Source of the DNA: a virus | Lineage: Duplodnaviria; Heunggongvirae; Uroviricota; Caudoviricetes | Virus record (IMG/VR): IMGVR_UViG_2545824717_000014 | DNA length: 15,997 nucleotides | Direction: 5' to 3' (one strand) | Shown: positions 2,309 to 15,997 of the stretch, piece after piece | Layout of the letters: the number at the start of each line of letters is the position of its first letter | How positions within the stretch are numbered: the stretch's first letter is position 1 | Program-made: the position numbers and the translations under genes | Notes under the pieces: model-generated | Seen by the model: the letters and a program-made list of their open reading frames with translations, nothing else | The model's database searches: none | Told to the model about the DNA's origin: nothing

Positions 2309-2387
2309 TAGTCTTAATAGAAATACTGTATGGGCAACCACTAAACTTTAAGTAACTTCATGAGCTATCAGAGAGGTTACTAGAGAC

Positions 2388-2606
2388 ATGACAGTACACA
2401 AGCCAGCATCATCAGCTATCCCAACAACTGGATACATCCGTCGCTTTCGCATGCCGGAATTGCTAGGTGTTTCACTGCCTACTATTGATAGATGGGTTAA
2501 AAATGGCACTCTTCCACGCCCAGTGAAGCTAACAGATAACGTGACTGCGTTTGATGCGGTGGAAATTAATAACTGGCTGGCAGAACGCCGCGGGAAGGTG
2601 GCCTGA
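2388..2606 (+). CDS. alpA: AlpA-family helix-turn-helix regulator/excisionase-like protein, 72 aa
   Basis: Small protein with the AlpA-type pattern (RMPELLGVSLPTIDRWVKNGTLPRPVKL ... EINNWL). It is the first gene after the AT-rich region and is directly followed by a coupled operon, as in P4-like and Gram-negative PICI elements. Confidence 0.8.
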   Translation: MTVHKPASSAIPTTGYIRRFRMPELLGVSLPTIDRWVKNGTLPRPVKLTDNVTAFDAVEINNWLAERRGKVA

Positions 2607-3037
2607 TGGAAAAGAAAAACCGCCCATTACAGGCGGCTAATTCAGATATTCGCGTATCTGATATTACGCCCCTTACAAAATCCCTTCAAGCACCAAAGCG
2701 CACACCGAAAAAGCATCGTGCCCGAGTCTATATGCTGCGTACTGGTATAGAGGGATGGACAGAAAATGACATTCTTCGCTACTGCCGTCTGTCTTCTGGT
2801 CGTAACTATGCAACAGAGTTAGAACGCCAGCTTGGAATCACTCTGGAGCGTATCGACGAAAAGAATCCTGATGGTATCGGAACACACCTTCGCTACCGTT
2901 TCTCCTGCCGTGGTGATGTTCTGAAAGTGATCACTCATGTTAACCATCTTGCGAACATAAATGATCACAACGGACTTTCTCAGCAGGAAATTGCCGACAT
3001 TCTGAAACTCTACCCGGACGCGTTTAACGCCGCCTAA
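2606..3037 (+). CDS. Hypothetical protein, 143 aa
   Basis: ATG at 2606 overlaps the alpA-like stop (TGATG); basic N-terminus; no motif I can assign. Confidence 0.6.
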   Translation: MEKKNRPLQAANSDIRVSDITPLTKSLQAPKRTPKKHRARVYMLRTGIEGWTENDILRYCRLSSGRNYATELERQLGITLERIDEKNPDGIGTHLRYRFSCRGDVLKVITHVNHLANINDHNGLSQQEIADILKLYPDAFNAA

Positions 3038-3049
3038 CGGAGACTAAAA

Positions 3050-3496
3050 ATGAACATCGAAAAAAGCAGATTAATTTCTGAGGCCGCCCCTCATCTGAAC
3101 GCCTCTCTGGGCACAATTAACGGTAATGAATTTGCCGCAATTGTCCCGGTTATTTCTGGTCATATAGGCGGGCGGGAAACCAATATTGTTAGCGCAAAAG
3201 CGTTACACAAAGCGTTGGGCGTGGGAAAAGACTTCTCTACATGGATCACTGATCGCATCTCTGAATATGACTTCACCATTGGGCACGATTACTCAGTCCA
3301 TAAAACAATTTCCCCAAATTTGGGGAAAAGCCCGAATGACGCGGCTTACAGCAAGATTAAGCAGTCTGGCAGACCCGGCAAAGACTATCTGTTAAGTGTC
3401 GGAATGGCGAAAGAACTGGCAATGATCGAACGCAATGATCAGGGTCGCGCTAACGATGCCCGTGCAGAGCTGGTAATTCTTGGTGGTGAAAAATGA
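3050..3496 (+). CDS. Phage antirepressor-like protein (AntA/Rha-type N-terminal domain), 148 aa
   Basis: The segment SAKALHKALGVGKDFSTWITDRISEYDFTIGHDY resembles the N-terminal domain of AntA/Rha/Bro-type phage regulatory proteins. GGAG-like RBS precedes the ATG. Confidence 0.5.
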   Translation: MNIEKSRLISEAAPHLNASLGTINGNEFAAIVPVISGHIGGRETNIVSAKALHKALGVGKDFSTWITDRISEYDFTIGHDYSVHKTISPNLGKSPNDAAYSKIKQSGRPGKDYLLSVGMAKELAMIERNDQGRANDARAELVILGGEK

Positions 3497-3756
3497 ATAT
3501 CAACTTAATTTATCGTCATCCGTGTGAGCTGGAAATTGAATCATTGCTGGGGCGCGAAGAGCCATATCCAGACACATTCACTCCCGCAGATTGCGCGACT
3601 GAACGGCTTACCAGAGCGCGCACAGGTCTGGTTCATGTGATGAATGAGATTATTCCCTCGGTGGGAGGGGAACAGGCGACAGTAATCAATAGCTGGCTAC
3701 AAAAAGTTACCTCCCTGATAGATATCAGTTTAATCGATGTGGAGAGTGCGAAATGA
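3493..3756 (+). CDS. Hypothetical protein, 87 aa
   Basis: ATGA start/stop overlap with the upstream gene (translational coupling); no recognisable motif. Confidence 0.5.
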   Translation: MNINLIYRHPCELEIESLLGREEPYPDTFTPADCATERLTRARTGLVHVMNEIIPSVGGEQATVINSWLQKVTSLIDISLIDVESAK

Positions 3757-3974
3757 CCAACATCCAGCTCATTGAAGCGCAATGTCGCATCGAACAGGTT
3801 CAGACTGTTTTAGGGTTCTGGCTTGAAGGGGCCAGCCCAAGCAACAGAGACAAGTTAATGATTGGCGCGGTTATGTCACTGCTCAATGGCGTACCAGAAG
3901 CTATTCAGGAAGCGGACGAATTGTTGGGCAAATATGAGTTACAGAATCATTCAGGCGAGGCGAAACATGAATAA
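3753..3974 (+). CDS. Hypothetical protein, 73 aa
   Basis: ATGA overlap with the upstream gene; no recognisable motif. Confidence 0.5.
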   Translation: MTNIQLIEAQCRIEQVQTVLGFWLEGASPSNRDKLMIGAVMSLLNGVPEAIQEADELLGKYELQNHSGEAKHE

Positions 3975-4569
3975 TTTCTTAACTTTCCATGCAGAAGCAA
4001 CGCCTGGCGGCGTAAACATCATGTACCGCAGCAACGATGGCATGACAGAACGCGTTGAGGCCGTCTCATATATTGATGCCGTAAATCGTCTGGATGCCGG
4101 GGATTATGACGATAAACCAGATGAAGGTATGTCAATACATCTCGCTATTGCCGATGGCGGCAACCAGGGATATTTCGATTACACATCACAGCATAACGTC
4201 ATTATGTGGAGATGGCTGATCGCAACAGTATTCATGCTGGAAATGAGAGAGGAAAACGGCACCGTCAGCATTATTGATGACAATGGCAATCATTCCGTGG
4301 TTTCTGTTTATTCCAATGGCATCGTCGCCATGCCGCTGTATCCAGTAGCAGAGCGCCTCGCTATGGCAAACAACATTGAGGGCGCAATGATCGAGAAATA
4401 TGGTGTTGATGTCGGAACAAAGAATGCCATCATTTTTTACAGCAACATGTTCGATGTCGAACAGGGAACACTCACTTCGTTTGGGCGAGAAGTGCTTGCC
4501 GATCTTCACAACAGCTTTATTGCCGAACTAAACGAAAACGGCATCCCAGAAGCACCAGTGACGCACTAA
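3967..4569 (+). CDS. Hypothetical protein, 200 aa
   Basis: Start placed at ATG 3967 (MNNFLTF...), which overlaps the previous stop by 8 nt, rather than at the upstream in-frame ATG 3862 that runs through the preceding gene. No motif recognised. Confidence 0.55.
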   Translation: MNNFLTFHAEATPGGVNIMYRSNDGMTERVEAVSYIDAVNRLDAGDYDDKPDEGMSIHLAIADGGNQGYFDYTSQHNVIMWRWLIATVFMLEMREENGTVSIIDDNGNHSVVSVYSNGIVAMPLYPVAERLAMANNIEGAMIEKYGVDVGTKNAIIFYSNMFDVEQGTLTSFGREVLADLHNSFIAELNENGIPEAPVTH

Positions 4570-4581
4570 ACGGGGGCCAGA

Positions 4582-6933
4582 ATGCGAAACATTGATCTTA
4601 TCCGTCAGGTTATCAGTGCGTCTGAAAACAACTGGCCTCATGTGCTGGACTGCCTGAACATAAATGTCCCTGACTCTCCGCGCCGTCATGCTCCCTGCCC
4701 TGCATGTGGGGGCAAAGATCGATTCCGGTTCGATGACAACGGGCGCGGTAGCTTCATCTGTAATCAGTGCGGCGCTGGTGATGGGCTGGATTTAATTAAA
4801 CGCGTAAATAACTGCGACACAACAGAGGCGGCGCTTCTTGCCGCTGATGTTCTGGGTATTGATTACCGGACAACGGAAACACCAGAAGCCACCAGCCAGA
4901 AACGGGAACAACTGGAAACCGAGCGCCAGCGACGCGAACAGGAGCGCCTGAAAAGGGCAGAGAAGGACGAACAACAAAGACGGGATACGTTTTCCCGTCA
5001 GTTTGATGACATGCGCAGAAAGGCTGTAAACGGCAAATCTGATTATCTGGTTGCGAAAGGGGTAGGTGATTTTACATTCCCTGTGTTGCCCGATGGATCT
5101 CTGTTGCTGGCGCTGGTGGATAAATCCGGCGCAGTCACAGCAGCACAGACTATTACCTCACATGGTGAAAAAAGACTCCTGACAGGTTCAGCAAAGCGAG
5201 GGGCATATCACGCCATAAACGCACAGAAACGACCTCACAGCATCATAATTGCTGAGGGGGTGGCTACCGCCCTGTCGTGCCATTTAATTCGCCCTGACGC
5301 AATGACAGTGGCAGCAATCGACGCTGGCAACCTGTTGCCAGTAGCGGAAGTCATGCGCAGAACATATCCACAGGCACAAATCATCATTGCCGCAGATAAC
5401 GATCACCAGCAAGGAAACTCCGAAAGTGGAGGGATCAACACGGGGAAAGATGCCGCAGAGAGGGCCGCTATTTCCGTAGCTGGCTGGGTGTCTCTGCCAC
5501 CGACTGACTATAAAGCCGACTGGAACGACTATCACCAACAACACGGGCTGGCGGCAGCCACAGCAGCATTTAAAGATTCGATGTACCAGCCACGGGGGAA
5601 AGGGGCGCAGGTGAAAAATCACAAACAGTCAGTCGGGGCGCTGAATGAGATCAGTTCTGGCGAGGTGTTAAGCGATGATGAAATTGCTGTCCTCGAAGAA
5701 ATCAACCGGACGTTTACGCATGTCACCATCGGCGGGAAACACAAGGTGGTGTCGCTAAAGCCTTCTCAAACCGGCGGTGTATCGCACGTTTTCGAGGATT
5801 TATCACAATTTCAGCATTATTTTCATCATAAACCGAGAGTCGCCAGAAAGCTGGCGGGATCGGCGTGGCTGTCATGGAGTGGGAAGAACTACAAGCCAGG
5901 AGGCGTAGGATTTTATCCAGTACCAGACAAATGCCCTGACGATGTTTTTAATCTGTATGAGGGGCTGGCACTGGAACCAATTGAAGGAGATTGCACGGTA
6001 TACCTTAATCACCTGTTGCAGGTTGTCTGTGCCGGTAATGAAGAGGCATACCAATATCTTATCCAGTGGATGGCGCACATTATCCAAAAGCCTGATGAAA
6101 AACCGTCCGTGGCAATCGTGATGAAATCTGTCCCGGGCACAGGGAAAGGCACAACGGTTAAACCGCTGCTGCAAATACTGGGGCAGTACGCCGCCCACAT
6201 TAACGGGGCGGGACATATTTCAGGGCGCTTCAATTCAATACTTGCTAACAAGCTACTGGTATTTGCTGACGAAGTGACGATCCACAAGCCGTCTGAAGCT
6301 GACAGACTTAAAGCGATTATTAGCGAACCGACGTTTAACCTTGAGCGCAAGGGAATTGATGCTGAACCAATGCCGAATTTTGCCCGGTTGATATTTGCCA
6401 GTAACAGCACACAGGTATTACAGGCAGGGATAAGAGAGCGCCGCTATCTCGTGCTTGAGCCATCTCCTGAAAAAGCACAGAGCCGGGAGTATTTTGATCG
6501 GCTGTACAGTTGGCTTAATGATGGCGGTGCCGCAAAGTTGCTTTGGCATCTTAAAGGGGTGGATCTCTCAGGTTTTGACCCTCAACGAGCGCCACAGACC
6601 GATGCCTTACGTGAAGAAATCTTGCTGGGGCTGTCTGGCGTTGAATTGTTTCTTTATGGCGAGCTAATCAATGAACCTCCGTTTAATGGCGAAGTCCGTT
6701 TGTTTGCAAAGGATATGGTTAGTCGATTTGTAGCGTGGTCGCTTGAGCGTGGGGAAAAGCTTAAAGAACCAGCTGCCAGATCACTACTGGGTAAATCACT
6801 TGCACAAATGGGGCTGGTGAAGCATGGAAGACCAGACCGAGGGAATGGCGTGTTCTACGAACTACCAGAGGTCGGAGTTCTACAGGCTGCGTTTGCCCGT
6901 CTGATCGGTATGGGGGGTTATGATGTTTTTTAA
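4582..6933 (+). CDS. Primase-helicase, P4 alpha-like (zinc-ribbon + TOPRIM primase + P-loop NTPase), 783 aa
   Basis: N-terminal CPAC...CNQC zinc ribbon; TOPRIM motifs (IIIAEGVATA with the conserved Glu, IIIAADNDH DxD box); C-terminal P-loop-like VPGTGKGT and Walker B LLVFADEV. Size and architecture match satellite/plasmid primase-helicases (P4 alpha is of similar length). Confidence 0.9.
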   Translation: MRNIDLIRQVISASENNWPHVLDCLNINVPDSPRRHAPCPACGGKDRFRFDDNGRGSFICNQCGAGDGLDLIKRVNNCDTTEAALLAADVLGIDYRTTETPEATSQKREQLETERQRREQERLKRAEKDEQQRRDTFSRQFDDMRRKAVNGKSDYLVAKGVGDFTFPVLPDGSLLLALVDKSGAVTAAQTITSHGEKRLLTGSAKRGAYHAINAQKRPHSIIIAEGVATALSCHLIRPDAMTVAAIDAGNLLPVAEVMRRTYPQAQIIIAADNDHQQGNSESGGINTGKDAAERAAISVAGWVSLPPTDYKADWNDYHQQHGLAAATAAFKDSMYQPRGKGAQVKNHKQSVGALNEISSGEVLSDDEIAVLEEINRTFTHVTIGGKHKVVSLKPSQTGGVSHVFEDLSQFQHYFHHKPRVARKLAGSAWLSWSGKNYKPGGVGFYPVPDKCPDDVFNLYEGLALEPIEGDCTVYLNHLLQVVCAGNEEAYQYLIQWMAHIIQKPDEKPSVAIVMKSVPGTGKGTTVKPLLQILGQYAAHINGAGHISGRFNSILANKLLVFADEVTIHKPSEADRLKAIISEPTFNLERKGIDAEPMPNFARLIFASNSTQVLQAGIRERRYLVLEPSPEKAQSREYFDRLYSWLNDGGAAKLLWHLKGVDLSGFDPQRAPQTDALREEILLGLSGVELFLYGELINEPPFNGEVRLFAKDMVSRFVAWSLERGEKLKEPAARSLLGKSLAQMGLVKHGRPDRGNGVFYELPEVGVLQAAFARLIGMGGYDVF

Positions 6934-6963
6934 TATAGTCTTTTTACAAGAAGATCGTTTTTA

Positions 6964-7066
6964 CCTGTACCACCTATACCACTTTGCTAATTCAGCATTA
7001 AAAACAATGCGTTATAGTGGTACAGGTCAATATCTTACCTATACCAGACCTGTACCACCTATACCA
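6964..7066. repeat. Iteron cluster 1: CCTGTACCACCTATACCA direct copies at 6964-6981 and 7049-7066 plus an inverted partial copy (TGGTACAGG, 7018-7026)
   Basis: Read directly from the sequence immediately downstream of the primase-helicase gene; candidate replication origin. Confidence 0.7.
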
Positions 7067-7109
7067 TTAACAAACGCATTTCTTCTGGCTGGCTGAGAGG
7101 GAACAACCA

Positions 7110-7340
7110 ATGATGAGCACACCATTTTACAAAGTGCGCCAGTTAGCTTCTTCCTCTGGCTGGCAGCTACGGTTTGAGGGGCGTTCAGACTGGCTACCCA
7201 TTGCGGCATGGGCGAATGTTGAAATGTGTATTGACGGCGATACCGTTGAAATCATTATTCCCTGCGTGGCAAGTCGGGACGGCTGTATAGAGCCAACAGA
7301 TATGGCAGCAGAAATCAGAGAGGTAAAACATGAACAATAA
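7110..7340 (+). CDS. Hypothetical protein, 76 aa
   Basis: ORF with a GAGG-like RBS, located between the two iteron clusters. Confidence 0.45.
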   Translation: MMSTPFYKVRQLASSSGWQLRFEGRSDWLPIAAWANVEMCIDGDTVEIIIPCVASRDGCIEPTDMAAEIREVKHEQ

Positions 7341-8067
7341 CTATTGCATACTGCAGGGAATGACCAGAACGGAGCGCGAAGAATTAAAAAGTTTCGCTAC
7401 ACAGTGCGGGAATGCTGGCGACATCCAAAGTCTGGAACGCACTTTAATTATGATTGCGCACTGGATGCGCCAGGGGCAAAGAGTTTCATTTACTGAATAT
7501 GCCAGCCAGTGGACAGAGGCACAGCGCGAACGGAGCGACGGTAATCACTCAACACCCGAAATGGCGAAGCAATGGCCTTTCAGTGGTAAACGCTGTATCA
7601 GTCCCGGTGGTTCAGATTATTACCCTGCTGGTGTGGGAGATGAGCCATGTTGTGACGAGACTGAAATCCGCCACGCAGTGACAGTAATTACCGCTGAATA
7701 CCCACAATTTAACCTTGACGGACTGGCGCTCCACAACCGGAATGCGGACTGGGAAAACCCGCTTGATAACCCGTCATTTATCGTATCGGCGAAAAGCTGC
7801 CTGAGATGGATCAGAGACAACGGGATGAGTAATGCCCAGATTGAGAGCTTCCCGCAGGATAACCCCACATCTGACACGTTGAAGCATGAAGTGGAGCGAT
7901 ATAACCAGATAAACCACCAGCACAGTGATCACCCGCACTATATCCCCAACGGAGCATTTATTGCGGCGATGGTGGCAAGCGGCTACAAGGTTAAGCCAGC
8001 GGGAAGAATGAACGCATTTTTCAATATTTCAAAAAAGGGATTATGTGCTGCTATGGGTAAAAATTAA
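7330..8067 (+). CDS. Hypothetical protein, 245 aa
   Basis: GAGGT RBS 7-8 nt upstream of the ATG; 11-nt overlap with the upstream gene; no motif recognised. Confidence 0.6.
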   Translation: MNNNYCILQGMTRTEREELKSFATQCGNAGDIQSLERTLIMIAHWMRQGQRVSFTEYASQWTEAQRERSDGNHSTPEMAKQWPFSGKRCISPGGSDYYPAGVGDEPCCDETEIRHAVTVITAEYPQFNLDGLALHNRNADWENPLDNPSFIVSAKSCLRWIRDNGMSNAQIESFPQDNPTSDTLKHEVERYNQINHQHSDHPHYIPNGAFIAAMVASGYKVKPAGRMNAFFNISKKGLCAAMGKN

Positions 8068-8073
8068 ATAAAT

Positions 8074-8176
8074 GGTACAGGTCTGTACAGGTGGGGAGAG
8101 GTCATTTTTACCCACCTGTACCACCTGCAGGCCGCGCCACACAAGGGTTTGTGACATGGTGGTACAGGTGGTACAG
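8074..8176. repeat. Iteron cluster 2: GGTACAGG/CCTGTACC copies at 8074-8081, 8085-8092, 8115-8122 (inverted), 8161-8168 and 8170-8176
   Basis: Same core octamer as cluster 1, in both orientations, ~1.1 kb downstream of cluster 1; resembles the paired ori/crr arrangement of P4-type replicons. Confidence 0.7.
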
Positions 8177-8670
8177 CAAAAACAGCGATTTTCTTTATAA
8201 GGTATGTTTTGCTCATCTGGCAGACGGAGGTATTCGCTGCGGTTTGGCACATAGCCCAGAACAGCAAAGAGTTTTACGAGACTTTTGTAAAATCCAGTGT
8301 ACAAGGGCGTGACGTTTTTGAAGGTGAGCACTACGAAATTTTCGTAGTTCAAAAAATAGCCTCTGAGATGTTGTTATGCCTGTTCAGCAAACCATCCGCA
8401 TAGCTGATCGCGAATCAAATTACCAATGGAGCCAGAAGCAAGGGCAGAACTGGAAAGCGCCTGCCGTGAAGAGTAATGCGACTCCATAAATATAGTTTTT
8501 AGAGTCCATAAAAAAACTGTCAAAACCTGACATACAGAACGATGCCACCAGCTACTGAACGGTGGCATTTTTTTGTGCTATTTGTTTCATATTTTGCAAT
8601 CACAATGATGAATGTTGCGTTTTATGAAACTATAATGACTGTTGTTTTATACAGTTCTAAGGGGGGCGTT

Positions 8671-8844
8671 ATGGCTATTTCAGTAAAGCCAGTATTGATA
8701 AGTGAGAAGCAAATGGAAGCGATAAAGAAAATTCAGGAGGAGCAGCGTAAAAAATCAGAGGTAGGAGTTGCGCCAACGATCCACGAAATTGCTCGGGGAT
8801 TAATGGATAAGGCGCTGGCTTACACTTTAACTGGACGTGGGTAA
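8671..8844 (+). CDS. Small protein, 57 aa, possible ribbon-helix-helix DNA-binding protein; first gene of the cargo operon
   Basis: Start chosen at ATG 8671, preceded by the G-rich RBS AAGGGGGG; a -10-like TATAAT lies ~40 bp upstream. The pattern ISVKPVLISEKQMEAIKKI ... IHEIARGLMDKAL is compatible with an RHH fold (weak, by eye). Stop is directly adjacent to the next gene. Confidence 0.45.
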   Translation: MAISVKPVLISEKQMEAIKKIQEEQRKKSEVGVAPTIHEIARGLMDKALAYTLTGRG

Positions 8845-8848
8845 ATTT

Positions 8849-10192
8849 ATGGCTACGTGGCAACAGGGTATTAATTCTGGTGGTTTTCTGGCTGGCATCG
8901 GTGCGCAAAATGAGAATGCGCCAAAGGCAAGCGACATTAACGCAACGCTTGGTCTGATCCGCGAAAACAATGAACTGGCTCCCTCAGGTGCAAATAACGT
9001 TGCTCTGACAGGTCTTCGTGGTCTGGCTGGAGTTGCTGACATTTATAAGCAGCAGCAACAGCAGGAACGTAAAGCGGCATTCCAGAAAGGTTATGCAGAT
9101 GCTTATGCGTCCGGTGACAGGGAGCAGATGCGTAATCTTATTACAGCATTCCCAGAAGAGTTTGAGGAAGTCCGTAAAGGGATGAGTTATGTCGATGATG
9201 CTCAAAGGGATGATTATGGCAATCTGGCGCTCAAAGCACAGGTAGCCTCATCGCTTGGTCAGGGCGCATTTGGCAGGTTCATGATGGATAATGAGCAGGA
9301 GATGCGTCGTTTAGGTATCCCTCCAGAAACTATTGCTGAAATGCAGGTTAATGACCCGCAGGGCTTCCAGCATTTCGCAGGTAATCTGGCGCTGTTTTCT
9401 CTCGGTCATGAGAAGTATTTCGATATCAAAGATCAAATGGAAGGTCGTCGACTTGAGCAAGGGCGACTGGATGAAAGTATGCGTCAGGCTGACATGGAGA
9501 ACGCGAGAGGATGGGCAAATATCCAGAACGCTCAACTAGACAGGGCTCAGCGAGCACAAATTCACTCAGATGAGATGGGATTGAAGCTAATGGAGCTGGG
9601 GCAAAAAGGTAAGCCGTCAGCAGACTTAATTAAGGGATTAAATTCTGACATTACCAATTTTGGCAAAAATTATAACTCTGTCAGAGCGGCGGCAAACTCT
9701 CTGCAAGCCCTTAGCAAGGTAAATACTGGCGCTGCCCAACTTGGGATTATCTTCAACTACATGAAATCTCTTGACCCGCAGTCAGTCGTTCGTGAAGGCG
9801 AACAGGTTCAGGTAATGCGGTCTGATGGCATATGGGGACAAATCAAAGGATACATAGACCAGCTTAATGCTGGAAACGGCCTGTCGCAGGAGGCAAAGGA
9901 TAACATTGTTAACGCCGCAAAAATCAACGCCAATGCTATGGGGCAGCAGTTTAACCAGCAGGTTGACGAGTATCTCGATACATATGGAGAAACTATTCCT
10001 CAGGGGCTAAGAAAAAGCCTTGAAAGAAGGAAAGCGAAGCTATTTGACGATGTTTCCGGGCAGCCTACATCACAGGCTGGCACTGGACAGGCAAAAGCGG
10101 CAACCGGAGGAATATCAGAAGGCGCAACGGCAACCAACCCTAAAACTGGTCAGAAAATCATTTACAGGAACGGAAAATGGCAGCAAATGTAA
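8849..10192 (+). CDS. Hypothetical protein, 447 aa, Q/A/N/G-rich and predicted largely helical; no recognisable catalytic motif (alternative GTG start at 8837)
   Basis: Long ORF whose 3' end overlaps the next gene by 16 nt. Contains a short poly-Gln run (KQQQQQERK) and many amphipathic-looking segments. Confidence 0.7.
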   Translation: MATWQQGINSGGFLAGIGAQNENAPKASDINATLGLIRENNELAPSGANNVALTGLRGLAGVADIYKQQQQQERKAAFQKGYADAYASGDREQMRNLITAFPEEFEEVRKGMSYVDDAQRDDYGNLALKAQVASSLGQGAFGRFMMDNEQEMRRLGIPPETIAEMQVNDPQGFQHFAGNLALFSLGHEKYFDIKDQMEGRRLEQGRLDESMRQADMENARGWANIQNAQLDRAQRAQIHSDEMGLKLMELGQKGKPSADLIKGLNSDITNFGKNYNSVRAAANSLQALSKVNTGAAQLGIIFNYMKSLDPQSVVREGEQVQVMRSDGIWGQIKGYIDQLNAGNGLSQEAKDNIVNAAKINANAMGQQFNQQVDEYLDTYGETIPQGLRKSLERRKAKLFDDVSGQPTSQAGTGQAKAATGGISEGATATNPKTGQKIIYRNGKWQQM

Positions 10193-12294
10193 TCTTACCG
10201 GAAGGTTTTGTGCTCGATGAACAACCTGATAACTCACAGTTTCCTGATAGTTCACAGCTTCCTGATGGTTTTGTGCTTGATGCCCAACCAGAACAGCAGC
10301 AATCACCTTTGGTTTCACCAGAGGAAAATTCCAGACAGGAAAATGTTGTTAATAATGCTAACGGTTTCGACCGTTTTATGTATGGCGTTCTCAGTGGATT
10401 GATGGATGTTGGTAAAGGTGTTGGCCTGTTTCAGGATATGACACCAGAAGAGCAAGCCGCAATTCAGTCTCTACAGCAGAAGTTAGCGGCAAAACCATCA
10501 ACCGCACAAGATGTTGGTGAGTTCGTTGGACAAGCAGCGCCATTTGTTAGTGGTGGTGGGATTATTTCTCAGGTTCCCAAAGGGGCGGCAAGACTGGCTG
10601 CCGCCGCAGGGCTTGGTGCTGGAGAAGGGGCTATTGTAGCCAATGGAACAAATAGCGATGTTGCTTCCGGCGCTGCTATTGGCGCTGTGGCTGGCCCTGT
10701 AGCCGAACTTGCTGGCCCTGCAATTAATAAAATAGCTGGGAAATTAACCAAGAAGAATGTTTCTTCGATTCCAGATATTGAGGGGATTACTCCTGCCGAA
10801 GAGAAAATTCGTAAGTTATCTGCACAAGGCAACCCAAATCTTGCCTCTTCGCTTGAAGGGCTAGATCTAAAACCTCAGAAAGAAATTGTTGAGGCTGCAA
10901 ATAGGCTTCATGTTGATTCAGTTCTTCCTTCTCATTTATCAGGAAATGAGCAATACCAAGCTGTAGAGCAAGCCCTAAAGTCACGGACAGGATCAGCGTT
11001 AAAAGCTCAAGAAGATAAAGCAATAAGCGAATTAGCCTCTAGTGCTGGCAAGATAATCGATGATGTTGCTGGTGCGCCAGATGCGTTAGCTATGAGCGAA
11101 AAATATATTTATCAGATAAATAGTAGAATGGAAGCACTAAAAAACCGTAGTGATCAGTTATATAAACGTGTTGATTCCGCTCTATCACCAAGAACAAAAG
11201 TCGAAGCAAATAACACAAGCACTATGCTGGAAAAAATCGCTGATGATTTAGGAGGGTGGGATAATCTTGACCCAATAGAAAAGCGAGTTTTTACAGCAAT
11301 AAACCCCGGCCCAGATAGCATCCTAACGTATGCAAATTTAAACAGGCAAAGGCGTTTAGTTGGTGATGCCCTAAATAAAAAGCAGGGGCCATACAAAGAT
11401 GCTGATAAAGAAGCGCTATCAAGACTATATGGAGCTTTAGCTGAAGACCAAAAATCTGTCTTATCCAATACTGGATACTTGCGAGATTTCGAAGTCGCAC
11501 AACGCCTTGTAGCTATGAGAAAAAACTTAGAAAGGCAAATGGTAAATCTTCGCGGGAAAACACTTAATGGGGATATAGCGTATAAAGTAACGAATTCTCT
11601 TCAATCTATGGCAAAAGGTGATGCGAGAGGGTTTCGTGAGATTATGCAAAATACTCCATCAAGAACATTGCGAAGGGAGCTAGTAGGAACAGCATTAAGA
11701 GATATGCTTTCCTCTGGGAAGCGTGGGGCCGACTTTAATCCATCTGGCTTCGCAGATTGGTGGCAAAACTTGCAACACAGTGGACAGCTAAAGACTTTGG
11801 CTGAACATTTGCCAAAAGAAACAATGAGCGGACTATATGATGTATACAAAGTTGCCAGAGCAATAAAAAATGCTAAAGCGCATGAAATATCTACTGGTAA
11901 GCTGAATGAGTTTGTAAACAGATTTAATCGGGTAACAGCTCCATACGAACTAGCAGCAAAACACATTCAAAAAATAGGCACGATGGTAGGCGCTCATTTT
12001 GGATCGCTTGGAGCCATTGCTGGGGCTGATATTGGAGCAAGATTGGCGAGTAAAGCTCGATTAGCTGGTGGAGCAGGGGCGGCTGATGCTGCGGATAAAT
12101 TAATTGCCTCGCCAGCCTTCCAGAGCGCAGTAAAAAATCTACACGGAAAAGCGCCTGGGCACATTGTTGATTCACGTATCAGGCGCTCCCCTCAATGGAA
12201 GAGTTTTTTTAACTCTCTTCCTGAACAGGAAAAACGGACCATCGCCAGACTGGGCATCATTACTTGGCTATCTAATGATCCAGATAATGACTAG
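10177..12294 (+). CDS. Hypothetical protein, 705 aa, with N-terminal tandem repeat (PEGFVLDEQP / PDGFVLDAQP) and Gly/Ala-rich hydrophobic segments near both ends
   Basis: ATG with AGGA RBS ~9 nt upstream; start overlaps the stop of the 447-aa gene. G/A-rich stretches (AAAAGLGAGEGAIVANG...AIGAVAGPVAELAGPAI; IGTMVGAHFGSLGAIAGADIGARL...AGGAGAA). No P-loop, nuclease or protease motif identified by eye. Confidence 0.75.
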   Translation: MAANVILPEGFVLDEQPDNSQFPDSSQLPDGFVLDAQPEQQQSPLVSPEENSRQENVVNNANGFDRFMYGVLSGLMDVGKGVGLFQDMTPEEQAAIQSLQQKLAAKPSTAQDVGEFVGQAAPFVSGGGIISQVPKGAARLAAAAGLGAGEGAIVANGTNSDVASGAAIGAVAGPVAELAGPAINKIAGKLTKKNVSSIPDIEGITPAEEKIRKLSAQGNPNLASSLEGLDLKPQKEIVEAANRLHVDSVLPSHLSGNEQYQAVEQALKSRTGSALKAQEDKAISELASSAGKIIDDVAGAPDALAMSEKYIYQINSRMEALKNRSDQLYKRVDSALSPRTKVEANNTSTMLEKIADDLGGWDNLDPIEKRVFTAINPGPDSILTYANLNRQRRLVGDALNKKQGPYKDADKEALSRLYGALAEDQKSVLSNTGYLRDFEVAQRLVAMRKNLERQMVNLRGKTLNGDIAYKVTNSLQSMAKGDARGFREIMQNTPSRTLRRELVGTALRDMLSSGKRGADFNPSGFADWWQNLQHSGQLKTLAEHLPKETMSGLYDVYKVARAIKNAKAHEISTGKLNEFVNRFNRVTAPYELAAKHIQKIGTMVGAHFGSLGAIAGADIGARLASKARLAGGAGAADAADKLIASPAFQSAVKNLHGKAPGHIVDSRIRRSPQWKSFFNSLPEQEKRTIARLGIITWLSNDPDND

Positions 12295-12313
12295 TGAATG
12301 GCCACGGATGGCC

Positions 12314-12739
12314 TCAATCTTTATTCTTTGAAATAGAGTCATTGATCTTTTCGAAACACCAATGAAATCCACAAAAGAGAGCTACACCAATATAACAATA
12401 CAAAACTATCAACCACCTTTCAGTGTCCGAAGGGTAAAAAACATCAATTACATAAGCAACACCAATTGGTATTAATGCTAGTAATAACATCGACACAGGA
12501 CGTACAAACTTCTGAACTATATCAATTTTATAGAACCACAAGGCGGTATGTTTAATGATATAAGTAAAGATGGCTGCGCCAATAATGGCAAAAAACACCA
12601 TCGATAAAGTCGGGTATAACTTTGCGACAATTAAACCCAACAAAATAATTATAACTGCCTGCCCCCTCACACCAACCCTCCCTTTAGCTTTGTTTAGAAT
12701 GGCAATCATCATATATCCAAGACATGGCATTTGGTACAT
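12314..12739 (-). CDS. Small integral membrane protein, up to 141 aa, about 4 predicted TM helices; convergent on the 705-aa gene
   Basis: Four hydrophobic ~20-residue segments (AVIIILLGLIVAKLY, SMVFFAIIGAAIFTYII, SMLLLALIPIGVAYVIDVF, WLIVLYCYIGVALFCGF). Its stop lies 19 bp from the stop of the 705-aa gene on the other strand. Start codon uncertain (several in-frame ATGs, no strong RBS). Confidence 0.6.
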   Translation of the reverse strand: MYQMPCLGYMMIAILNKAKGRVGVRGQAVIIILLGLIVAKLYPTLSMVFFAIIGAAIFTYIIKHTALWFYKIDIVQKFVRPVSMLLLALIPIGVAYVIDVFYPSDTERWLIVLYCYIGVALFCGFHWCFEKINDSISKNKD

Positions 12740-12857
12740 AGCTTGGGTCGGGATTTCAAATCCGCTCCCCGTTGATGGGGCCGTTACAGTACGCGCATAT
12801 CCGCTTTATGTGAAACAGGAAGATTTTTCTGATATCACTGCCACAGCAAAACACCAA

Positions 12858-12936
12858 TTTCGTGACCAGTACGCGCGCGAGGTGTATCAGTTGCAAAATT
12901 TTTTGCAGCTGTGTCCGACCAGTACGCACGCGATGG
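12858..12936. repeat. Two copies of a ~25-bp motif with an alternating CG core (TTTCGTGACCAGTACGCGCGCGAGG at 12858-12882; degenerate copy GTGTCCGACCAGTACGCACGCGATGG at 12911-12936)
   Basis: Read directly from the sequence; located in a ~450-bp stretch without convincing ORFs. Confidence 0.6.
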
Positions 12937-13142
12937 CGGGGAGCACCATAAAACTGTTCTCTACATAAGACAGAGTGGTGGTGATGTGTTGATTATCGGC
13001 GTATATGCGCACAGGACGCGCTATGACGATGTTTTATGCGGGTACACCAATCACATGTATCTGGTGTGATAAATCGCGTTACATGACCTCTCATGTTGTG
13101 CTGGTGGTTATCACGACGTTCTGAATCTGGCCTTTGCCTGAT

Positions 13143-13169
13143 ATTTTGCGACAAGTACGCGCGCGTAGC
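13143..13169. repeat. Third copy of the motif (ATTTTGCGACAAGTACGCGCGCGTAGC), containing the perfect palindrome TACGCGCGCGTA
   Basis: Read directly from the sequence. Confidence 0.6.
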
Positions 13170-13193
13170 ATCGACAGCATACACATTGGATAT

Positions 13194-13394
13194 TCATTTT
13201 GTGACCAATGCGATAAGTAGCGGGATAAGAATTGATAAAATCAACAGGACGATGATCCACTTCTGATTCTCGTCCATCTTATCTGCTAGGCGACGCTCCA
13301 TTCCGTGCATATCACCGCGAATGGCAATCATCTCATTGCGAACATCCGAGAAGTGGTTGGCTTGATGTTCAATGTGTGGCGTTCTGCCTTTCAT
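13194..13394 (-). CDS. Small tail-anchored membrane protein, 66 aa (hydrophilic N-terminus, single C-terminal TM helix)
   Basis: GAGG RBS upstream of the ATG on the minus strand; C-terminal WIIVLLILSILIPLLIALV hydrophobic helix. Architecture recalls XhlA-type or holin-like small membrane proteins (by eye only). Confidence 0.55.
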   Translation of the reverse strand: MKGRTPHIEHQANHFSDVRNEMIAIRGDMHGMERRLADKMDENQKWIIVLLILSILIPLLIALVTK

Positions 13395-13473
13395 TCCTGA
13401 TCCTCACCTATCGTCACCACCTGCTGGTGTATAAAGGTATTGGCCCAAGCAGCTTTCTAATGGGCACTCATGT

Positions 13474-13929
13474 TTATACGCTGACCTTACAATCAATCAC
13501 CGCTTTTAACTTTTCAGCATTGCTTCCCTGACGCTTCCACGCGCTGTAAATATCTTTATCCCACGCTTTACCAGCTTTTGTTTGATAGCCTGCTTCATTG
13601 ATCCGTTCAGCTATCACACGCCCATTATCAAATCCCTGTCGGATGGTATCGGCAATGATCTTTATAACTGCCGTTTCGTTATATGGCTTTGGTGGGATGT
13701 TCGGCTTTCCGGCAATAAGCGACGCAGCGGCTTTTTCCATGCGCTCCACCAGCCCAAGCATTCGTGAATCAATAGACTTTTCCGGCTGTCCCAGCTTCAT
13801 GCGAATCGCATCAACAAGCCAGGAGGTTTTATCCCCTCCAGAAGCGAGAACAGACCGATTAAACTCATCCTGCAATTCAGATGGGATGCGGAACGCGACC
13901 AGATTAGATTTGCTCATTGCAAAGACCAT
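13474..13929 (-). CDS. Putative ribbon-helix-helix DNA-binding regulator, 151 aa (alternative start at 13917); no RBS, possibly leaderless
   Basis: N-terminal LVAFRIPSELQDEFNRSV...TSWLVDAIRMKL fits a beta-strand/helix/helix RHH (Arc/CopG-like) pattern. Divergent from the PerC-like gene across a palindrome/iteron-rich region. Confidence 0.55.
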   Translation of the reverse strand: MVFAMSKSNLVAFRIPSELQDEFNRSVLASGGDKTSWLVDAIRMKLGQPEKSIDSRMLGLVERMEKAAASLIAGKPNIPPKPYNETAVIKIIADTIRQGFDNGRVIAERINEAGYQTKAGKAWDKDIYSAWKRQGSNAEKLKAVIDCKVSV

Positions 13930-13946
13930 ATCAGTGAGTAATATCC

Positions 13947-13978
13947 ATACAGTATACCACTGTATAACACTGTTATAC
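13947..13978. promoter_or_regulatory. Overlapping palindromes ATACAGT-N5-ACTGTAT (13947-13965) and GTATAACA-C-TGTTATAC (13962-13978); operator-like
   Basis: Perfect inverted repeats read directly from the sequence, located just upstream (minus-strand sense) of the RHH-like gene start. Confidence 0.5.
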
Positions 13979-14030
13979 GCTCAAATATCAACCAGAAAAT
14001 AACGGACCAATCACAAAGCTATCGCTGTGT

Positions 14031-14152
14031 TGTTGGTTCAGAGCTGGACTGTGTTGGTTCAAAATGAGTTGATGTTGGTTCAATATTTCTGAAAAAACAC
14101 AATAAAAACAACGATCTTTACAAATTGAACCAACTGAACCAACTGAACCAAC
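14031..14152. repeat. Iteron array: TGTTGGTTCA x3 direct at 21-bp phasing (14031-14040, 14052-14061, 14073-14082), AT-rich spacer, then TGAACCAAC x3 in tight tandem on the opposite orientation (14126-14152)
   Basis: Read directly from the sequence; lies directly upstream of a -10-like TATATAAT (14168-14175) and the PerC-like gene. Confidence 0.75.
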
Positions 14153-14188
14153 ACCTTTTTGCTTATCTATATAATCTGAGAGGCAGAA

Positions 14189-14476
14189 ATGATAAGGGAC
14201 AGGAAAGCTGAAGAGCTGGAGTCAAAAGGGCTATACCGGAGAGCTGCCGCACGATGGGCAGAAGTCATGATGCTGGCAGATGGCGATAAAGAACGTGAAC
14301 ATGCAGCAAACAGACGCTCTGAATGTATCCGTAAGGCGGCACGCCAACCAGCAACTACAGACAGATTCGGAGATTTAAGACAGGCAGTTAAGCGGACTCA
14401 TTCGGCTCTTGGTATGGATGAGGAAGCGAGAGGGTACTTCAGGCGTTATCGCGATAAAGATTGCCAGAGACAGTAA
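14189..14476 (+). CDS. PerC-family transcriptional activator-like protein, 95 aa
   Basis: N-terminal KAEELESKGLYRRAAARWAEVM matches the conserved PerC/Pch-type signature as I recall it; GAGAGG RBS upstream. Confidence 0.65.
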   Translation: MIRDRKAEELESKGLYRRAAARWAEVMMLADGDKEREHAANRRSECIRKAARQPATTDRFGDLRQAVKRTHSALGMDEEARGYFRRYRDKDCQRQ

Positions 14477-14750
14477 TGCTCTCTCTGTTTTGGCAAATTA
14501 CCCCTCACTTTGAAGGGATCGGAGCTATAAAAATGGTGTTATCCGGCTTCCTCAAATTTAGGTTTTCGAAAGAATCAATGGGTTAGGTCATCGTGCAAAT
14601 TTGCACTCTGCCAGCCAACGCAATTTCTCGTTGGCGGAAATATCAGGTATTTACTGAACGAACGGTCTACCAGTCTGTTCAGTTACCAGTTGCACATGGC
14701 TGTTTCATGTGAGAACGGAGGTTTTTTCGGACATCGCTATTGGGTACAGC

Positions 14751-15129: not shown

Positions 15130-15172
15130 ACAGATTTACTTTCTTTGCAATCGATATCACATGGAGTGGGCA

Positions 15173-15997
15173 ATGAACGAACATCATCAACCTTTTGAAG
15201 AAATACGGCATTATGGCACTGAAGGGCAAGAATTTTGGTCAGCTAGAGAATTGGCACCGTTACTGGATTATCGGGACTGGCGCAATTTTCAAAAGGTACT
15301 GGCCCGCGCGACTCAAGCGTGCGAAGCCAGCAATCAAGCTGCATCTGACCATTTCGTTGAAACCACCAAAATGGTTGTATTAGGTTCAGGGGCTCAACGA
15401 GAACTTGAAGATGTTCATCTCTCCCGCTATGCCTGTTACCTGGTAGTACAAAACGGCGACCCTGCGAAACCGGTTATTGCGGCAGGGCAAACTTATTTTG
15501 CTATCCAGACCCGACGGCAGGAGCTGGCTGACGATGAAGCTTTCAGGCAACTTCGTGAAGACGAAAAGCGTCTTTTTCTGAGAAATGAATTGAAAGAACA
15601 TAACAAACAATTGGTTGAGGCAGCGCAGCAAGCTGGGGGAGCGACAGCTATCGATTTCGCCATATTTCAGAATCATGGTTACCGGGGGCTGTATGGTGGA
15701 TTAGATCAGAAAGCTATTCATCAGCGGAAGGGGCTGAAAAAGAATCAGAAGATCCTGGATCATATGGGTTCAACAGAACTGGCGGCTAATCTCTTTCGAG
15801 CTACCCAAACAGAAGAAAAACTCAAGCGGGATGGCGTGAATTCAAAACAGCAAGCAAACACCACACACTTTGACGTGGGTCGCAAGGTGAGGCAAACCAT
15901 TCAGGAACTTGGCGGAACCATGCCTGAGGAGTTGCCGACCCCGCAGGTCAGCATCAAGCAGTTGGAAAACAGTGTAAAAATTACAGAGAAGAAATAG
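15173..15997 (+). CDS. dinD: DNA-damage-inducible protein D (Bro-N-like domain protein), 274 aa
   Basis: Start at ATG 15173 (MNEHHQPFEEIRHYGTEGQEFW...) with a GGAG RBS; the upstream in-frame ATG 15161 lacks an RBS. Sequence and length match E. coli DinD as I recall it, and the upstream LexA box fits an SOS gene. Stop TAG at 15995-15997. Confidence 0.85.
   Translation: MNEHHQPFEEIRHYGTEGQEFWSARELAPLLDYRDWRNFQKVLARATQACEASNQAASDHFVETTKMVVLGSGAQRELEDVHLSRYACYLVVQNGDPAKPVIAAGQTYFAIQTRRQELADDEAFRQLREDEKRLFLRNELKEHNKQLVEAAQQAGGATAIDFAIFQNHGYRGLYGGLDQKAIHQRKGLKKNQKILDHMGSTELAANLFRATQTEEKLKRDGVNSKQQANTTHFDVGRKVRQTIQELGGTMPEELPTPQVSIKQLENSVKITEKK

What the first reader, a model, noticed from the sequence alone, without database searches (positions are those of the whole stretch)
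10177..10400. Tandem nucleotide and peptide repeats at the 5' end of the 705-aa gene
The first ~100 nt encode LPEGFVLDEQP...LPDGFVLDAQP from two ~29-bp near-identical direct repeats (CCGGAAGGTTTTGTGCTCGATGAACAACC / CCTGATGGTTTTGTGCTTGATGCCCAACC), with nested CCTGATA(A/G)(C/T)TCACAG repeats between them. Such repeats can drive copy-number variation by slipped-strand or recombination events, or form a repeated binding or targeting motif. The gene also appears to shift from GC-rich Gly/Ala codons at its 5' end to a more AT-rich body, hinting at a mosaic origin.
Basis: seen in the sequence. Interest (0 to 1): 0.45.

Follow-up and report, generated by a model that had tools for sequence, protein, structure and literature searches.

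The report
Twin docking motif on phage ejection protein
The repeats are real, but they are the DNA shadow of an ancient, twice-repeated peptide (LPxGFVLD) at the start of a phage DNA-ejection protein, which always travels with a matching tail on the neighbouring ejection protein and probably joins the two in the DNA-injection channel.

Summary
The repeats exist as described: 26 of 32 nt match, and 0 of 300 codon shuffles reach that. The 705-aa gene is the positional and profile equivalent of phage P22 gene 16, an ejection protein. It sits beside a gp20-type gene in an E. coli integrase/AlpA/primase island.

Selection acts on the peptide, not the DNA. Across 51 versions the motif residues are 87% identical, but third codon positions only 43%. 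Of 102 protein families at most 50% identical that start with this motif, 91 have exactly two copies.

Only the nested 18-nt unit varies. It has one or two copies, as two fixed alleles.

The GC bump comes from Gly/Ala codons, because GC3 is flat along the gene. The gene is still mosaic by homology, with a junction near 10700-10790.

The main result is a coupling. The upstream gp20-type protein ends in ..EGxTATNPxTGQKIIFRNGQWQPM wherever this N-terminal motif occurs, even in very divergent phages. Four such tail and N-terminus pairs swap as units, with 0 mismatches in 76 loci and breakpoints just outside them.

The likely role, which I infer rather than show, is the gp20-gp16 joint of the trans-envelope channel.

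The parts
10177..12294 (+). 705-aa gene: the P22 gene-16-type ejection ('DNA transfer') protein
   Evidence: It matches phrog_6704 over its full length (E 1e-174) and phrog_770 'DNA transfer protein' (E 1e-50). It occupies the gene-16 position after gp7 and gp20 in complete P22-like modules.
10177..10290 (+). N-terminal 'cap' module (residues 1-38): M-A-x-x-V-x, LPEGFVLD, linker, LPDGFVLD, xQP
   Evidence: This is a discrete swappable module. P0053 and P0059 are over 90% identical except in the first 30-40 residues. Within it, L7 P8 G10 F11 L13 D14 L28 P29 G31 F32 D35 are invariant columns of the family alignment.
10195..10218 (+). Motif copy 1, LPEGFVLD (residues 7-14)
   Evidence: Consensus from 104 representatives: L97 P100 E66 G100 F100 V79 L94 D96 (percent).
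10258..10281 (+). Motif copy 2, LPDGFVLD (residues 28-35)
10225..10260 (+). Nested 18-nt tandem duplication in the linker (PDNSQF / PDSSQL). It lengthens the spacing between motifs to 21 residues.
   Evidence: There is one unit in all Kapi1-like loci and in 43 E. coli genomes, and two units in 95 E. coli genomes and in P0002. The family spacing is 10-23 residues with a median of 15.5.
10118..10192 (+). C-terminal tail of the upstream gp20-type protein, EGATATNPKTGQKIIYRNGKWQQM plus stop codon: the partner of the cap
   Evidence: The tail is conserved upstream of the cap in 11 of 12 divergent non-enterobacterial loci that have an upstream gene, counting L071, where the motif is internal. It is absent from loci with other caps. 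A reciprocal scan starting from the tail finds the cap in 24 of 25 loci.
10177..10192 (+). 16-nt overlap of the gp20 stop region (KWQQM*) with the gp16 start (MAANV)
   Evidence: Read directly from the sequence. The overlap ties the last 5 codons of gp20 to the first 5 codons of gp16.
8849..10192 (+). gp20-type ejection protein gene (ORF listing gives an upstream GTG at 8837)
   Evidence: PF16928 Inj_translocase, E 4e-72. RefSeq names it 'phage DNA ejection protein'.
10504..10746 (+). Gly/Ala-rich segment (residues 110-190), the cause of the GC bump. It is predicted to be disordered.
   Evidence: GC1 is 0.74 and GC2 0.58, but GC3 is 0.28. pLDDT is below 50 for residues 105-227.
10700..10790 (+). 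Mosaic junction inside the gene (about residues 175-204)
   Evidence: Nucleotide similarity to Kapi1 ends at 10697, or at 10649 by megablast. Protein identity falls after about residue 183. Similarity to the P0045 lineage starts at residue 204.
10858..12276 (+). Confidently predicted all-alpha body (residues 228-700)
   Evidence: AlphaFold2 pLDDT is mostly about 80-96, with low-confidence dips near residues 514-517 and 589-613. There is no significant PDB fold or sequence match.

Best explanation
The two near-identical 29-32-nt stretches encode two copies of a short linear peptide motif, L-P-[E/D]-G-F-V-L-D. Together they form the N-terminal 'cap' of a P22 gene-16-type ejection protein. The DNA similarity is a by-product of selection on the peptide. 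The cap is half of a two-gene junction module. The other half is the C-terminal tail of the upstream, overlapping gp20-type ejection protein (..EGxTATNPxTGQKIIFRNGQWQPM). Tail and cap are inherited and exchanged between phages as one cassette of about 180 nt, while the bodies of both proteins recombine freely around it.

Shown: the motif, its conservation, its two-copy rule, the tail-cap coupling, and the breakpoints flanking the module.

Inferred: after ejection, the flexible cap of gp16 docks onto the tail at the distal end of the gp20 tube and joins the periplasmic tube to the inner-membrane component. This would play the part that the 'molecular tape' of T7 gp16 plays on gp15. Two motifs per gp16 may hold two gp20 tails.

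The extra 18-nt unit in this allele is a linker duplication. It keeps the spacing inside the range the family tolerates.
For: Peptide-level selection:
- Across 51 distinct nucleotide versions, the 16 motif codons are 87% identical in amino acid but only 43% identical at third positions.
- Copy 1 against copy 2 within a gene gives 87% and 42%.

Distribution:
- A profile of the cap finds 243 representatives (clusters at 50% identity) among 1.84 billion proteins.
- 102 of the top 149 carry the motif at the extreme N-terminus. Two copies occur in 91 of them.

Coupling:
- In 76 P22-like loci found through the conserved gp20 N-terminus, tail type and cap type agree with no exception: a-a 37, b-b 21, c-c 10, f-f 7, other 1.
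- In divergent environmental phages the tail is present upstream of the cap in 10 of 11 ORFs, against 1 of 150 background ORFs (p about 5e-14). It is also present internally in the eleventh.
- A reverse scan starting from the tail finds the twin cap in 24 of 25 loci.

Breakpoints hug the module:
- gp20 of L093 and L106 are 100% identical over residues about 210-420, then 10% in the last 30. L117 and L129 are 83-97% identical, then 0-20%.
- gp16 proteins P0053 and P0059 are over 90% identical after the cap.
- No breakpoint falls at the gene boundary itself.

Structure: residues 1-88 are predicted to be disordered, as expected for a motif that folds on binding.

Literature:
- P22 carries the b pair and Sf6 the c pair. 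P22 with only Sf6 gene 16 or only Sf6 gene 20 is non-infectious, both together work, and Sf6 gp16 is still packaged (PMC10461980).
- gp7*, gp20 and gp16 assemble in sequence into the channel, and gp16 can be added from outside the cytoplasm (PMC13622523 abstract).
- The T7 gp16 tape lies just after its SLT domain and cements gp15 (PMC8954989). P0256 and P0227 have SLT followed by the twin cap in that same position.
- A virion holds about 30 gp20 and about 12 gp16 (PMC8402733).
Against: - No direct evidence of binding.
- Tail and cap lie about 20 nt apart and partly overlap. Simple physical linkage would therefore also keep them together in closely related phages.
- The loci are not phylogenetically independent, and the tail regex was written after seeing the data.
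- Exceptions exist. The polyvalent protein P0209 carries four caps but has no upstream same-strand gene. L192 has the tail but no cap downstream.
- The P22/Sf6 incompatibility could map anywhere in the two proteins.
- In this island the gene may no longer serve any phage at all.
Confidence: 0.6

Rival explanations
1. The cap has a function unrelated to gp20. It might bind a host envelope component, peptidoglycan or membrane, or set the order of exit from the virion. On this view it stays with the gp20 tail only because the two are adjacent, overlapping and translationally coupled.
For: Tail and cap are separated by about 5 codons and share a 16-nt overlap, so recombinants between them would be rare anyway. 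The cap also occurs on a polyvalent protein with no gp20-type neighbour (P0209). Caps sit next to SLT domains in some relatives.
Against: A gene boundary is normally the easiest place for a viable mosaic junction. Here the junctions fall 30-40 codons inside each gene instead. Both halves survive together in lineages where everything else has diverged beyond recognition. Genetics shows that gp16 and gp20 must be cognate (PMC10461980).
Confidence: 0.2
2. The cap is a procapsid-incorporation signal, like the capsid-targeting sequence of T4 internal proteins. It would bind scaffold or coat so that the protein is packaged.
For: It lies at the extreme N-terminus. It is found on proteins expected to be packaged and injected, including polyvalent proteins of 1.5-3.2 thousand residues. 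N-terminal parts of gp7 and gp20 suffice for incorporation (PMC8402733).
Against: Sf6 gp16 (cap c) is incorporated into P22 particles, whose own gp16 has cap b (PMC10461980). The 171-residue N-terminal amber fragment of P22 gp16 was not seen in particles. Each ejection protein assembles independently of the others (PMC8402733). This reading also does not explain the strict pairing with the gp20 tail.
Confidence: 0.12
3. The repeats work at the DNA level, as substrates for slipped-strand mispairing or recombination that generate copy-number or phase variation.
For: The nested 18-nt unit is present once or twice in different lineages. Rare families have 3, 4 or 7 motif copies.
Against: There are only two imperfect, in-frame units. 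All 94 E. coli genomes that match at 99% identity or more have the same length. Third positions of the two main copies are near saturation at 42% identity, so there is no gene conversion. Two copies are the rule across about 100 families.
Confidence: 0.03

Closest known systems
Phage P22 gp16 / Sf6 gp13-type ejection (E-) proteins and their known intragenic mosaicism (Casjens & Thuman-Commike 2011, as cited in PMC10461980)
   Same: The gene sits in the same position after gp7 and gp20. It matches the phrog_770 'DNA transfer protein' profile and shows extreme mosaic diversity. P22 and Sf6 carry their own tail-cap pairs, types b and c.
   Different: There is no pairwise similarity to P22 gp16 and no Pfam hit, PF26808 included. 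The LPxGFVLD twin cap and its partner tail are not mentioned in any paper of the searchable library. Here the gene lies in an island without the other virion genes.
Phage T7 gp16 N-terminal region: SLT domain plus a 'molecular tape' (residues 157-228) that cements the gp15 periplasmic tube (PMC8954989)
   Same: In both, an N-terminal flexible segment of the inner-membrane ejection protein is proposed to bind the end of the tube protein. Relatives P0256 and P0227 place the twin cap directly after an SLT domain.
   Different: There is no sequence similarity. This protein has no SLT domain. Binding has been seen by cryo-EM for T7 and is only inferred here.
T4 capsid-targeting sequence of the internal proteins IpI-III
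   Same: It is a short N-terminal peptide on proteins that are packaged and injected.
   Different: The T4 signal directs packaging. Published P22 genetics argues against that role for the gp16 N-terminus. It offers no counterpart to the paired tail.
Cna-B / SpaA-type surface-protein repeats with A-P-x-G-Y-x-L-D strands
   Same: They share a similar eight-residue beta-strand-like motif, which is why giant adhesins appear among the profile hits.
   Different: Those strands are internal parts of folded Ig-like domains in unrelated cell-surface proteins. The resemblance is convergent or accidental.

Membership tests
P22 gene-16-type ejection / DNA transfer proteins | Encoded immediately downstream of, and overlapping, a gp20-type (Inj_translocase) gene | tested here: met
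   gp20-type gene at 8849-10192 (PF16928, E 4e-72) overlaps the 705-aa gene by 16 nt. Close relatives lie in gp10-gp26-gp14-gp7-gp20-gp16 modules.
P22 gene-16-type ejection / DNA transfer proteins | Profile similarity to the family | tested here: met
   phrog_770 'DNA transfer protein', E 1.2e-50, residues 113-654; phrog_6704 over the full length.
P22 gene-16-type ejection / DNA transfer proteins | Match to Pfam PF26808 (Phage_P22_gp16) or pairwise similarity to P22 gp16 | tested here: not met
   No Pfam family at E up to 0.01. BLASTP against P22 gp16 gives E 0.49. Many relatives sharing the C-terminal body have PF26808 on record; one fetched locus (L152) names it Phage_P22_gp16.
P22 gene-16-type ejection / DNA transfer proteins | Present in virions, released on infection, required for DNA entry | not testable with these tools
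   Needs virion proteomics and genetics.
T7 gp16-like 'molecular tape' joint | N-terminal lytic transglycosylase domain preceding the tape | tested here: not met
   No SLT domain in this protein. SLT is present in relatives (P0009, P0256).
T7 gp16-like 'molecular tape' joint | The extended N-terminal segment binds the C-terminal end of the tube protein | not testable with these tools
   Only indirect evidence: disorder of residues 1-88 and tail-cap co-inheritance.
Contingency / slipped-strand repeat loci | Several near-perfect tandem units whose number varies among close relatives | tested here: not met
   Two imperfect 18-nt units. Length is identical in all 94 genomes that match at 99% identity or more. 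The main copies are 63 nt apart and diverged at silent sites.
T4-type capsid-targeting sequence | The N-terminal peptide is sufficient for incorporation into procapsids | not tested
   Published P22 data argue against it: an amber fragment of 171 residues was not seen in particles, and heterologous Sf6 gp16 is incorporated.
PICI / P4-like phage satellites (for the surrounding island) | Integrase, AlpA-type regulator and primase in one orientation at a chromosomal att site | tested here: met
   Integrase at 1-1269, AlpA at 2388-2606, Toprim/DUF5906 primase at 4582-6933, located between yicC and dinD.
PICI / P4-like phage satellites (for the surrounding island) | Helper-exploitation genes (capsid-size redirection, packaging) and helper-dependent mobilisation | tested here: inconclusive
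   No such genes were recognised with PHROGs, Pfam, NCBIfam or PADLOC. Mobilisation cannot be tested here.

The most novel reading that the evidence does not exclude
The LPxGFVLD cap and the ..TATNPxTGQKIIFRNGQWQ tail are one of several interchangeable 'connector codes' that decide which inner-membrane or cargo protein can plug into which gp20-type tube. Any protein with the cap would be recruited to the channel. That includes gp16-type proteins, SLT fusions, and polyvalent injected proteins of 1.5-3.2 thousand residues carrying 2-7 caps. Mismatched codes would make co-infecting phages or satellites incompatible. The E. coli integrase/AlpA/primase island in this window carries a cleanly captured, separately transcribed, matched gp20-gp16 pair. 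It may use that pair either to equip helper capsids with its own ejection proteins or to poison the progeny of P22-like phages.
Probability: 0.25. Interest if true: 0.75.

Novelty: new variant of a known kind. Interest (0 to 1): 0.55.

Why it matters
How the three P22-type ejection proteins find each other and build a 50-nm channel is being worked out now. It is also unclear why gp16 and gp20 must come from the same phage.

This analysis gives a sequence-level candidate for the gp20-gp16 joint. The candidate is a tail-cap pair found in well over a hundred divergent phage lineages, with at least four alternative pairs that swap as cassettes. That makes the question directly testable through tail-only, cap-only and double swaps.

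The cap is also a simple marker for finding gp16-position and other injected proteins in uncultivated podoviruses whose sequences match no known family. It may help predict compatibility of ejection proteins in engineered phages.

For the original finding taken alone, the message is more ordinary: the repeats are not a hypervariable locus.

Tried and rejected
- A word-indexed protein search with the 48-residue cap returned only four short fragments.
- tblastn of the N-terminus against isolated phages found only seven P22-like phages.
- A GTDB genome scan with the gp20 alignment gave 48 pattern hits, none confirmed.
- The PDB copy holds no sequence match for gp20 or for the gp16 family.
- Foldseek of the AlphaFold2 model against the PDB gave nothing significant (best E 0.49).
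- No natural tail-cap fusion protein was found among the profile hits.
- The 100-aa ORF upstream of gp20 is not a gp7 relative.
- The downstream 141-aa membrane protein is not similar to P22 SieA.
- No PADLOC defence model matches any island gene. The only match is to the flanking dinD.
- The promoter and terminator scan of 6900-12800 was no richer than shuffles.
- No canonical -1 slippery heptamer is visible at the gp20/gp16 overlap, so I do not propose a frameshift fusion.
- Casjens & Thuman-Commike 2011 and Casjens & Grose 2016 are not held, and only the abstract of the 2026 in-situ P22 preprint is readable. I therefore cannot exclude that the b-type tail-cap contact has already been seen.
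- Giant repetitive surface proteins among the profile hits were set aside as unrelated.
Full report
**1. The observation.** Two 32-nt stretches (10198-10229 and 10261-10292) are 81% identical and 63 nt apart. Between them lies an 18-nt tandem pair (10225-10242 and 10243-10260, 83% identical). The 705-aa ORF 10177-12294 begins MAANVILPEGFVLDEQPDNSQFPDSSQLPDGFVLDAQPEQ. The best 32-nt repeat scores 26/32. In 300 codon shuffles of 10177-10400 the mean is 18 and the maximum 21.

**2. The gene and its setting.** The protein matches phrog_6704 end to end and phrog_770 'DNA transfer protein' (E 1e-50). The overlapping upstream ORF carries PF16928, the P22 injectosome translocase domain of gp20. In the Lederbergvirus phages Kapi1 and SEN22, and in metagenomic contigs, close relatives sit in the order gp10, gp26, gp14, gp7, gp20, then this gene. 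It is therefore the gene-16-position ejection protein. BLASTP against P22 gp16 itself finds nothing and Pfam gives no hit.

The window is E. coli chromosome. The genes lie in an island of about 15 kb between yicC and dinD that also holds an integrase, AlpA, AntA, a Toprim/DUF5906 primase and PerC.

**3. A peptide repeat, not a DNA repeat.** In the window the two copies differ at 7 of 12 codons, 4 of them silently. Across 51 distinct nucleotide versions from 190 loci, the 16 motif codons are 87% identical in amino acid. Third positions at conserved residues are only 43% identical. Copy 1 against copy 2 within a gene gives the same figures, 87% and 42%. The copies are therefore old and are held by selection on the peptide. 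They are not being homogenised.

In an alignment of relatives down to 25% overall identity, L7 P8 G10 F11 L13 D14 L28 P29 G31 F32 D35 are among the invariant columns.

The nested 18-nt unit is different. All Kapi1-like loci have one unit (PDNSQL). The window type and P0002 have two. Among 5,426 complete E. coli genomes, 138 carry the region. Of these, 95 match at 95% identity or more with the full length, and 43 match at 80-90% and are 18 nt shorter. These are two fixed alleles with no heterogeneity.

**4. Composition and mosaicism.** GC rises to 0.53-0.58 around residues 110-190 and again at 601-660. GC3 is flat, at 0.31 for residues 1-190 and 0.305 for 191-705. The rise is in GC1 and GC2 and tracks Gly/Ala content. 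Composition therefore says nothing about origin.

Homology does. Residues 1 to about 185 are about 95% identical to the Kapi1 protein and the rest about 30%. Residues 204-705 are 63% identical to the P0045 lineage, which has a different N-terminus. Nucleotide similarity to Kapi1 stops at 10649-10697. The junction lies in a region that AlphaFold2 predicts to be disordered. pLDDT is below 50 for residues 1-88 and 105-227, whereas residues 228-700 form a confident all-alpha body.

**5. The cap is a widespread, portable module.** Homologues of the body carry at least six alternative N-termini:
- the LPxGFVLD twin (type a here);
- MKVTANGKTF.FPDGTS..IDEYF (type b, P22);
- MAKAWKDVIASPQYQ.. (type c, Sf6);
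- MAGPWEKYQ..GPW..Y followed by SLT;
- MDVLLPNGRTI.GVPDGTS followed by SLT;
- M.Y.REQLMTALRNADAAGDTEGA (type f).

Swaps are clean. P0053 (type a) and P0059 (type c-like) are over 90% identical except in the first 30-40 residues. P0104 (a), P0114 (c) and P0116 (f) are 92-100% identical just after the cap.

A pattern scan of IMG/VR found the twin motif at the start of the gene-16-position gene in 67 loci. Eight of these are very divergent environmental contigs whose proteins match no PHROG family, or only phrog_5880. In one of them the neighbours are recognisable gp10, gp7 and gp20 homologues.

A profile of the cap searched against 1.84 billion representative proteins gave 243 hits at E up to 1e-3. 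Of the top 149, 102 have the motif at the extreme N-terminus. Copy number is 2 in 91 of them, 3 in 9, 4 in 1 and 7 in 1. The consensus is L97 P100 [E66] G100 F100 V79 L94 D96 (percent). Spacing is 10-23 residues with a median of 15.5, and the window's 21 is at the upper end.

Carriers include giant proteins. One has ddrB-ParB and LPD1 'polyvalent protein' domains. Two have an SLT domain directly before the cap. The remaining hits are unrelated repetitive adhesins with a similar strand motif. No paper in the searchable library contains the motif string.

**6. The main result: a paired tail.** In every cap-a locus the upstream gp20-type protein ends with ..EGxTATNPxTGQK[IL]I[FY]R[NG]G[QK]WQ[PQ]M. 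This holds even where the rest of that protein is unrecognisable. P22 gp20 ends differently.

I sampled loci independently of the cap, through the conserved gp20 N-terminus. This gave 76 informative loci in which tail type and cap type agree perfectly: a-a 37, b-b 21, c-c 10, f-f 7, and one other pair.

The tail is independent of the gp20 body:
- L093 (tail a) and L106 (tail b) are 100% identical over residues about 210-420 and 10% identical in the last 30.
- L117 (b) and L129 (c) are 83-97% identical and then 0-20%.
- Loci that share a tail can have bodies only 10-40% identical.

Four more divergent loci, fetched through their cap proteins, also have the tail. In the divergent set, 10 of 11 upstream ORFs match a tail pattern, against 1 of 150 other ORFs (p about 5e-14, with a pattern written post hoc). 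The eleventh has the motif internally. The reverse scan, starting from the tail, finds the twin cap on the overlapping downstream gene in 24 of 25 distinct loci.

The exceptions are the polyvalent P0209, which has no upstream partner, and L192.

The last five gp20 codons and the first five gp16 codons overlap (10177-10192). This explains why MA[TA][ND]V and KWQ[PQ]M* are conserved together. The core motifs lie outside the overlap.

**7. How it probably works (inferred).** Mosaic junctions usually fall at gene boundaries. Here they fall 30-40 codons inside each gene and never at the boundary. This is what one expects if the end of gp20 and the start of gp16 must match.

Published work fits:
- P22 has pair b and Sf6 has pair c. 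P22 carrying only Sf6 gene 16 or only Sf6 gene 20 is dead, both together work, and Sf6 gp16 is still packaged (PMC10461980).
- The channel is built in the order gp7*, gp20, gp16, and gp16 can be supplied from outside the cytoplasm by another virion (PMC13622523 abstract).
- In T7 the segment after the SLT domain of gp16 tapes the gp15 tube together (PMC8954989).

I therefore propose that the disordered twin cap docks on gp20 tails at the inner-membrane end of the tube, perhaps by adding strands to a tail hairpin. Two motifs per gp16, against about 30 gp20 and about 12 gp16 per virion (PMC8402733), would suit a 2:1 joint. None of this binding is shown.

**8. Rivals.**
- Linkage by adjacency alone, with the cap doing something else, remains possible (0.2).
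- A packaging signal is disfavoured by the P22 data above and by the absence of the 171-residue amber fragment from particles.
- A slippage locus is rejected.

**9. The island.** Similarity to a complete P22-like virion module (L151, 84% nt identity) spans window 8849-12226 only. It begins at the gp20 start codon and ends about 70 nt before the gp16 stop codon. Upstream there is a terminator-like hairpin with a T-run (8551-8575) and a 57-aa ORF (8671-8844).

The pair thus looks like a cleanly captured, separately transcribed cassette in a PICI-like element. At least 84 genomes carry it intact. Some genomes instead show deletion fusions (P0003, P0004, P0043) or IS1 insertions. Whether the cassette serves the island or is decaying is open. 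The satellite papers I found do not mention ejection proteins.

**10. Verdict.** It is partly wrong about slippage and about composition. The gene belongs to a known kind of protein. The twin cap, its paired tail and their behaviour as a cassette appear to be undescribed, and they give a testable model for the gp20-gp16 joint.

Noticed in passing
window 1-14500 (island); cassette 8849-12226: An integrase/AlpA/AntA/primase/PerC island between yicC and dinD carries only two virion genes, gp20 and gp16. Similarity to a complete P22-like module starts at the gp20 start codon and ends about 70 nt before the gp16 stop codon. The arrangement is PICI-like, but no capsid or packaging genes were recognised.
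   Followed up: partly
window 8551-8575 and 8671-8844: A terminator-like hairpin with a T-run is followed by a 57-aa ORF (MAISVKPVLISEKQMEAIKK...) with a good ribosome-binding site, directly upstream of gp20. It has no family match. It suggests that the gp20-gp16 pair forms its own transcription unit.
   Followed up: partly
window 12314-12739 (- strand): A 141-aa multi-pass membrane protein lies immediately downstream of gp16 on the opposite strand, which is the position sieA holds in P22. It is not similar to P22 SieA. It shows weak nucleotide similarity (68%) to the gene at the same position in the P22-like contig L150.
   Followed up: partly
window 6963-6982 and 7037-7066; also 8073-8176: Short repeats (ACCTATACC) lie just after the primase gene. 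A cluster of direct and inverted GGTACAGG / CCACCTGTACC copies follows. These are candidate origin iterons or operator sites of the island.
   Followed up: no
window 3452 versus L001 9143-10952: Strain 2014EL-1346-6 has 1.8 kb more here than the window (a longer antA/antB gene, a DUF4222 gene and an ash-family gene). The early region of the island is therefore polymorphic.
   Followed up: no
P0003, P0004, P0043; H21, H30-H32: Some E. coli genomes encode fusions: the integrase N-terminus joined to the gp16-type C-terminus, or the gp20 N-terminus joined to the gp16 C-terminus. Others have an IS1 inside the region. The cassette is decaying in some lineages.
   Followed up: no
gp20 tails and gp16 caps of P22, Sf6 and loci L106-L148: At least three other tail-cap pairs exist: ..SYTSKSGI[KQ]FTVE with MKVTANGKTF.FPDGTS; ..NFSSLWGD with MAKAWKDVIASPQYQ; and ..LINKYLGGQ with M.Y.REQLMTALRNADAAGDTEGA. 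The a-type tail (NPKTGQKIIYRNG) resembles the b- and e-type caps (ANGKTFTFPDG, PNGRTIQGVPDG), as if a hairpin had moved across the gene boundary.
   Followed up: partly
L153 (P0131), L154 (P0209), L155 (P0159): Proteins of 1,900-2,200 residues start with 2, 4 or 7 LPxGFxLD copies. One has ddrB-ParB and LPD1 polyvalent-protein domains. In L153 and L155 the upstream gene still ends in the a-type tail.
   Followed up: partly
window 10177-12294 versus neighbouring genes: GC3 of the gp16-type gene (0.30) is well below that of gp20 (0.445), the integrase (0.47) and the primase (0.49). This holds even for the 5' part that is 89% identical to Kapi1.
   Followed up: no
window 15161-15997: The flanking host gene dinD matches the PADLOC candidate defence models PDC-S13 (E 5e-124).
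   Followed up: no
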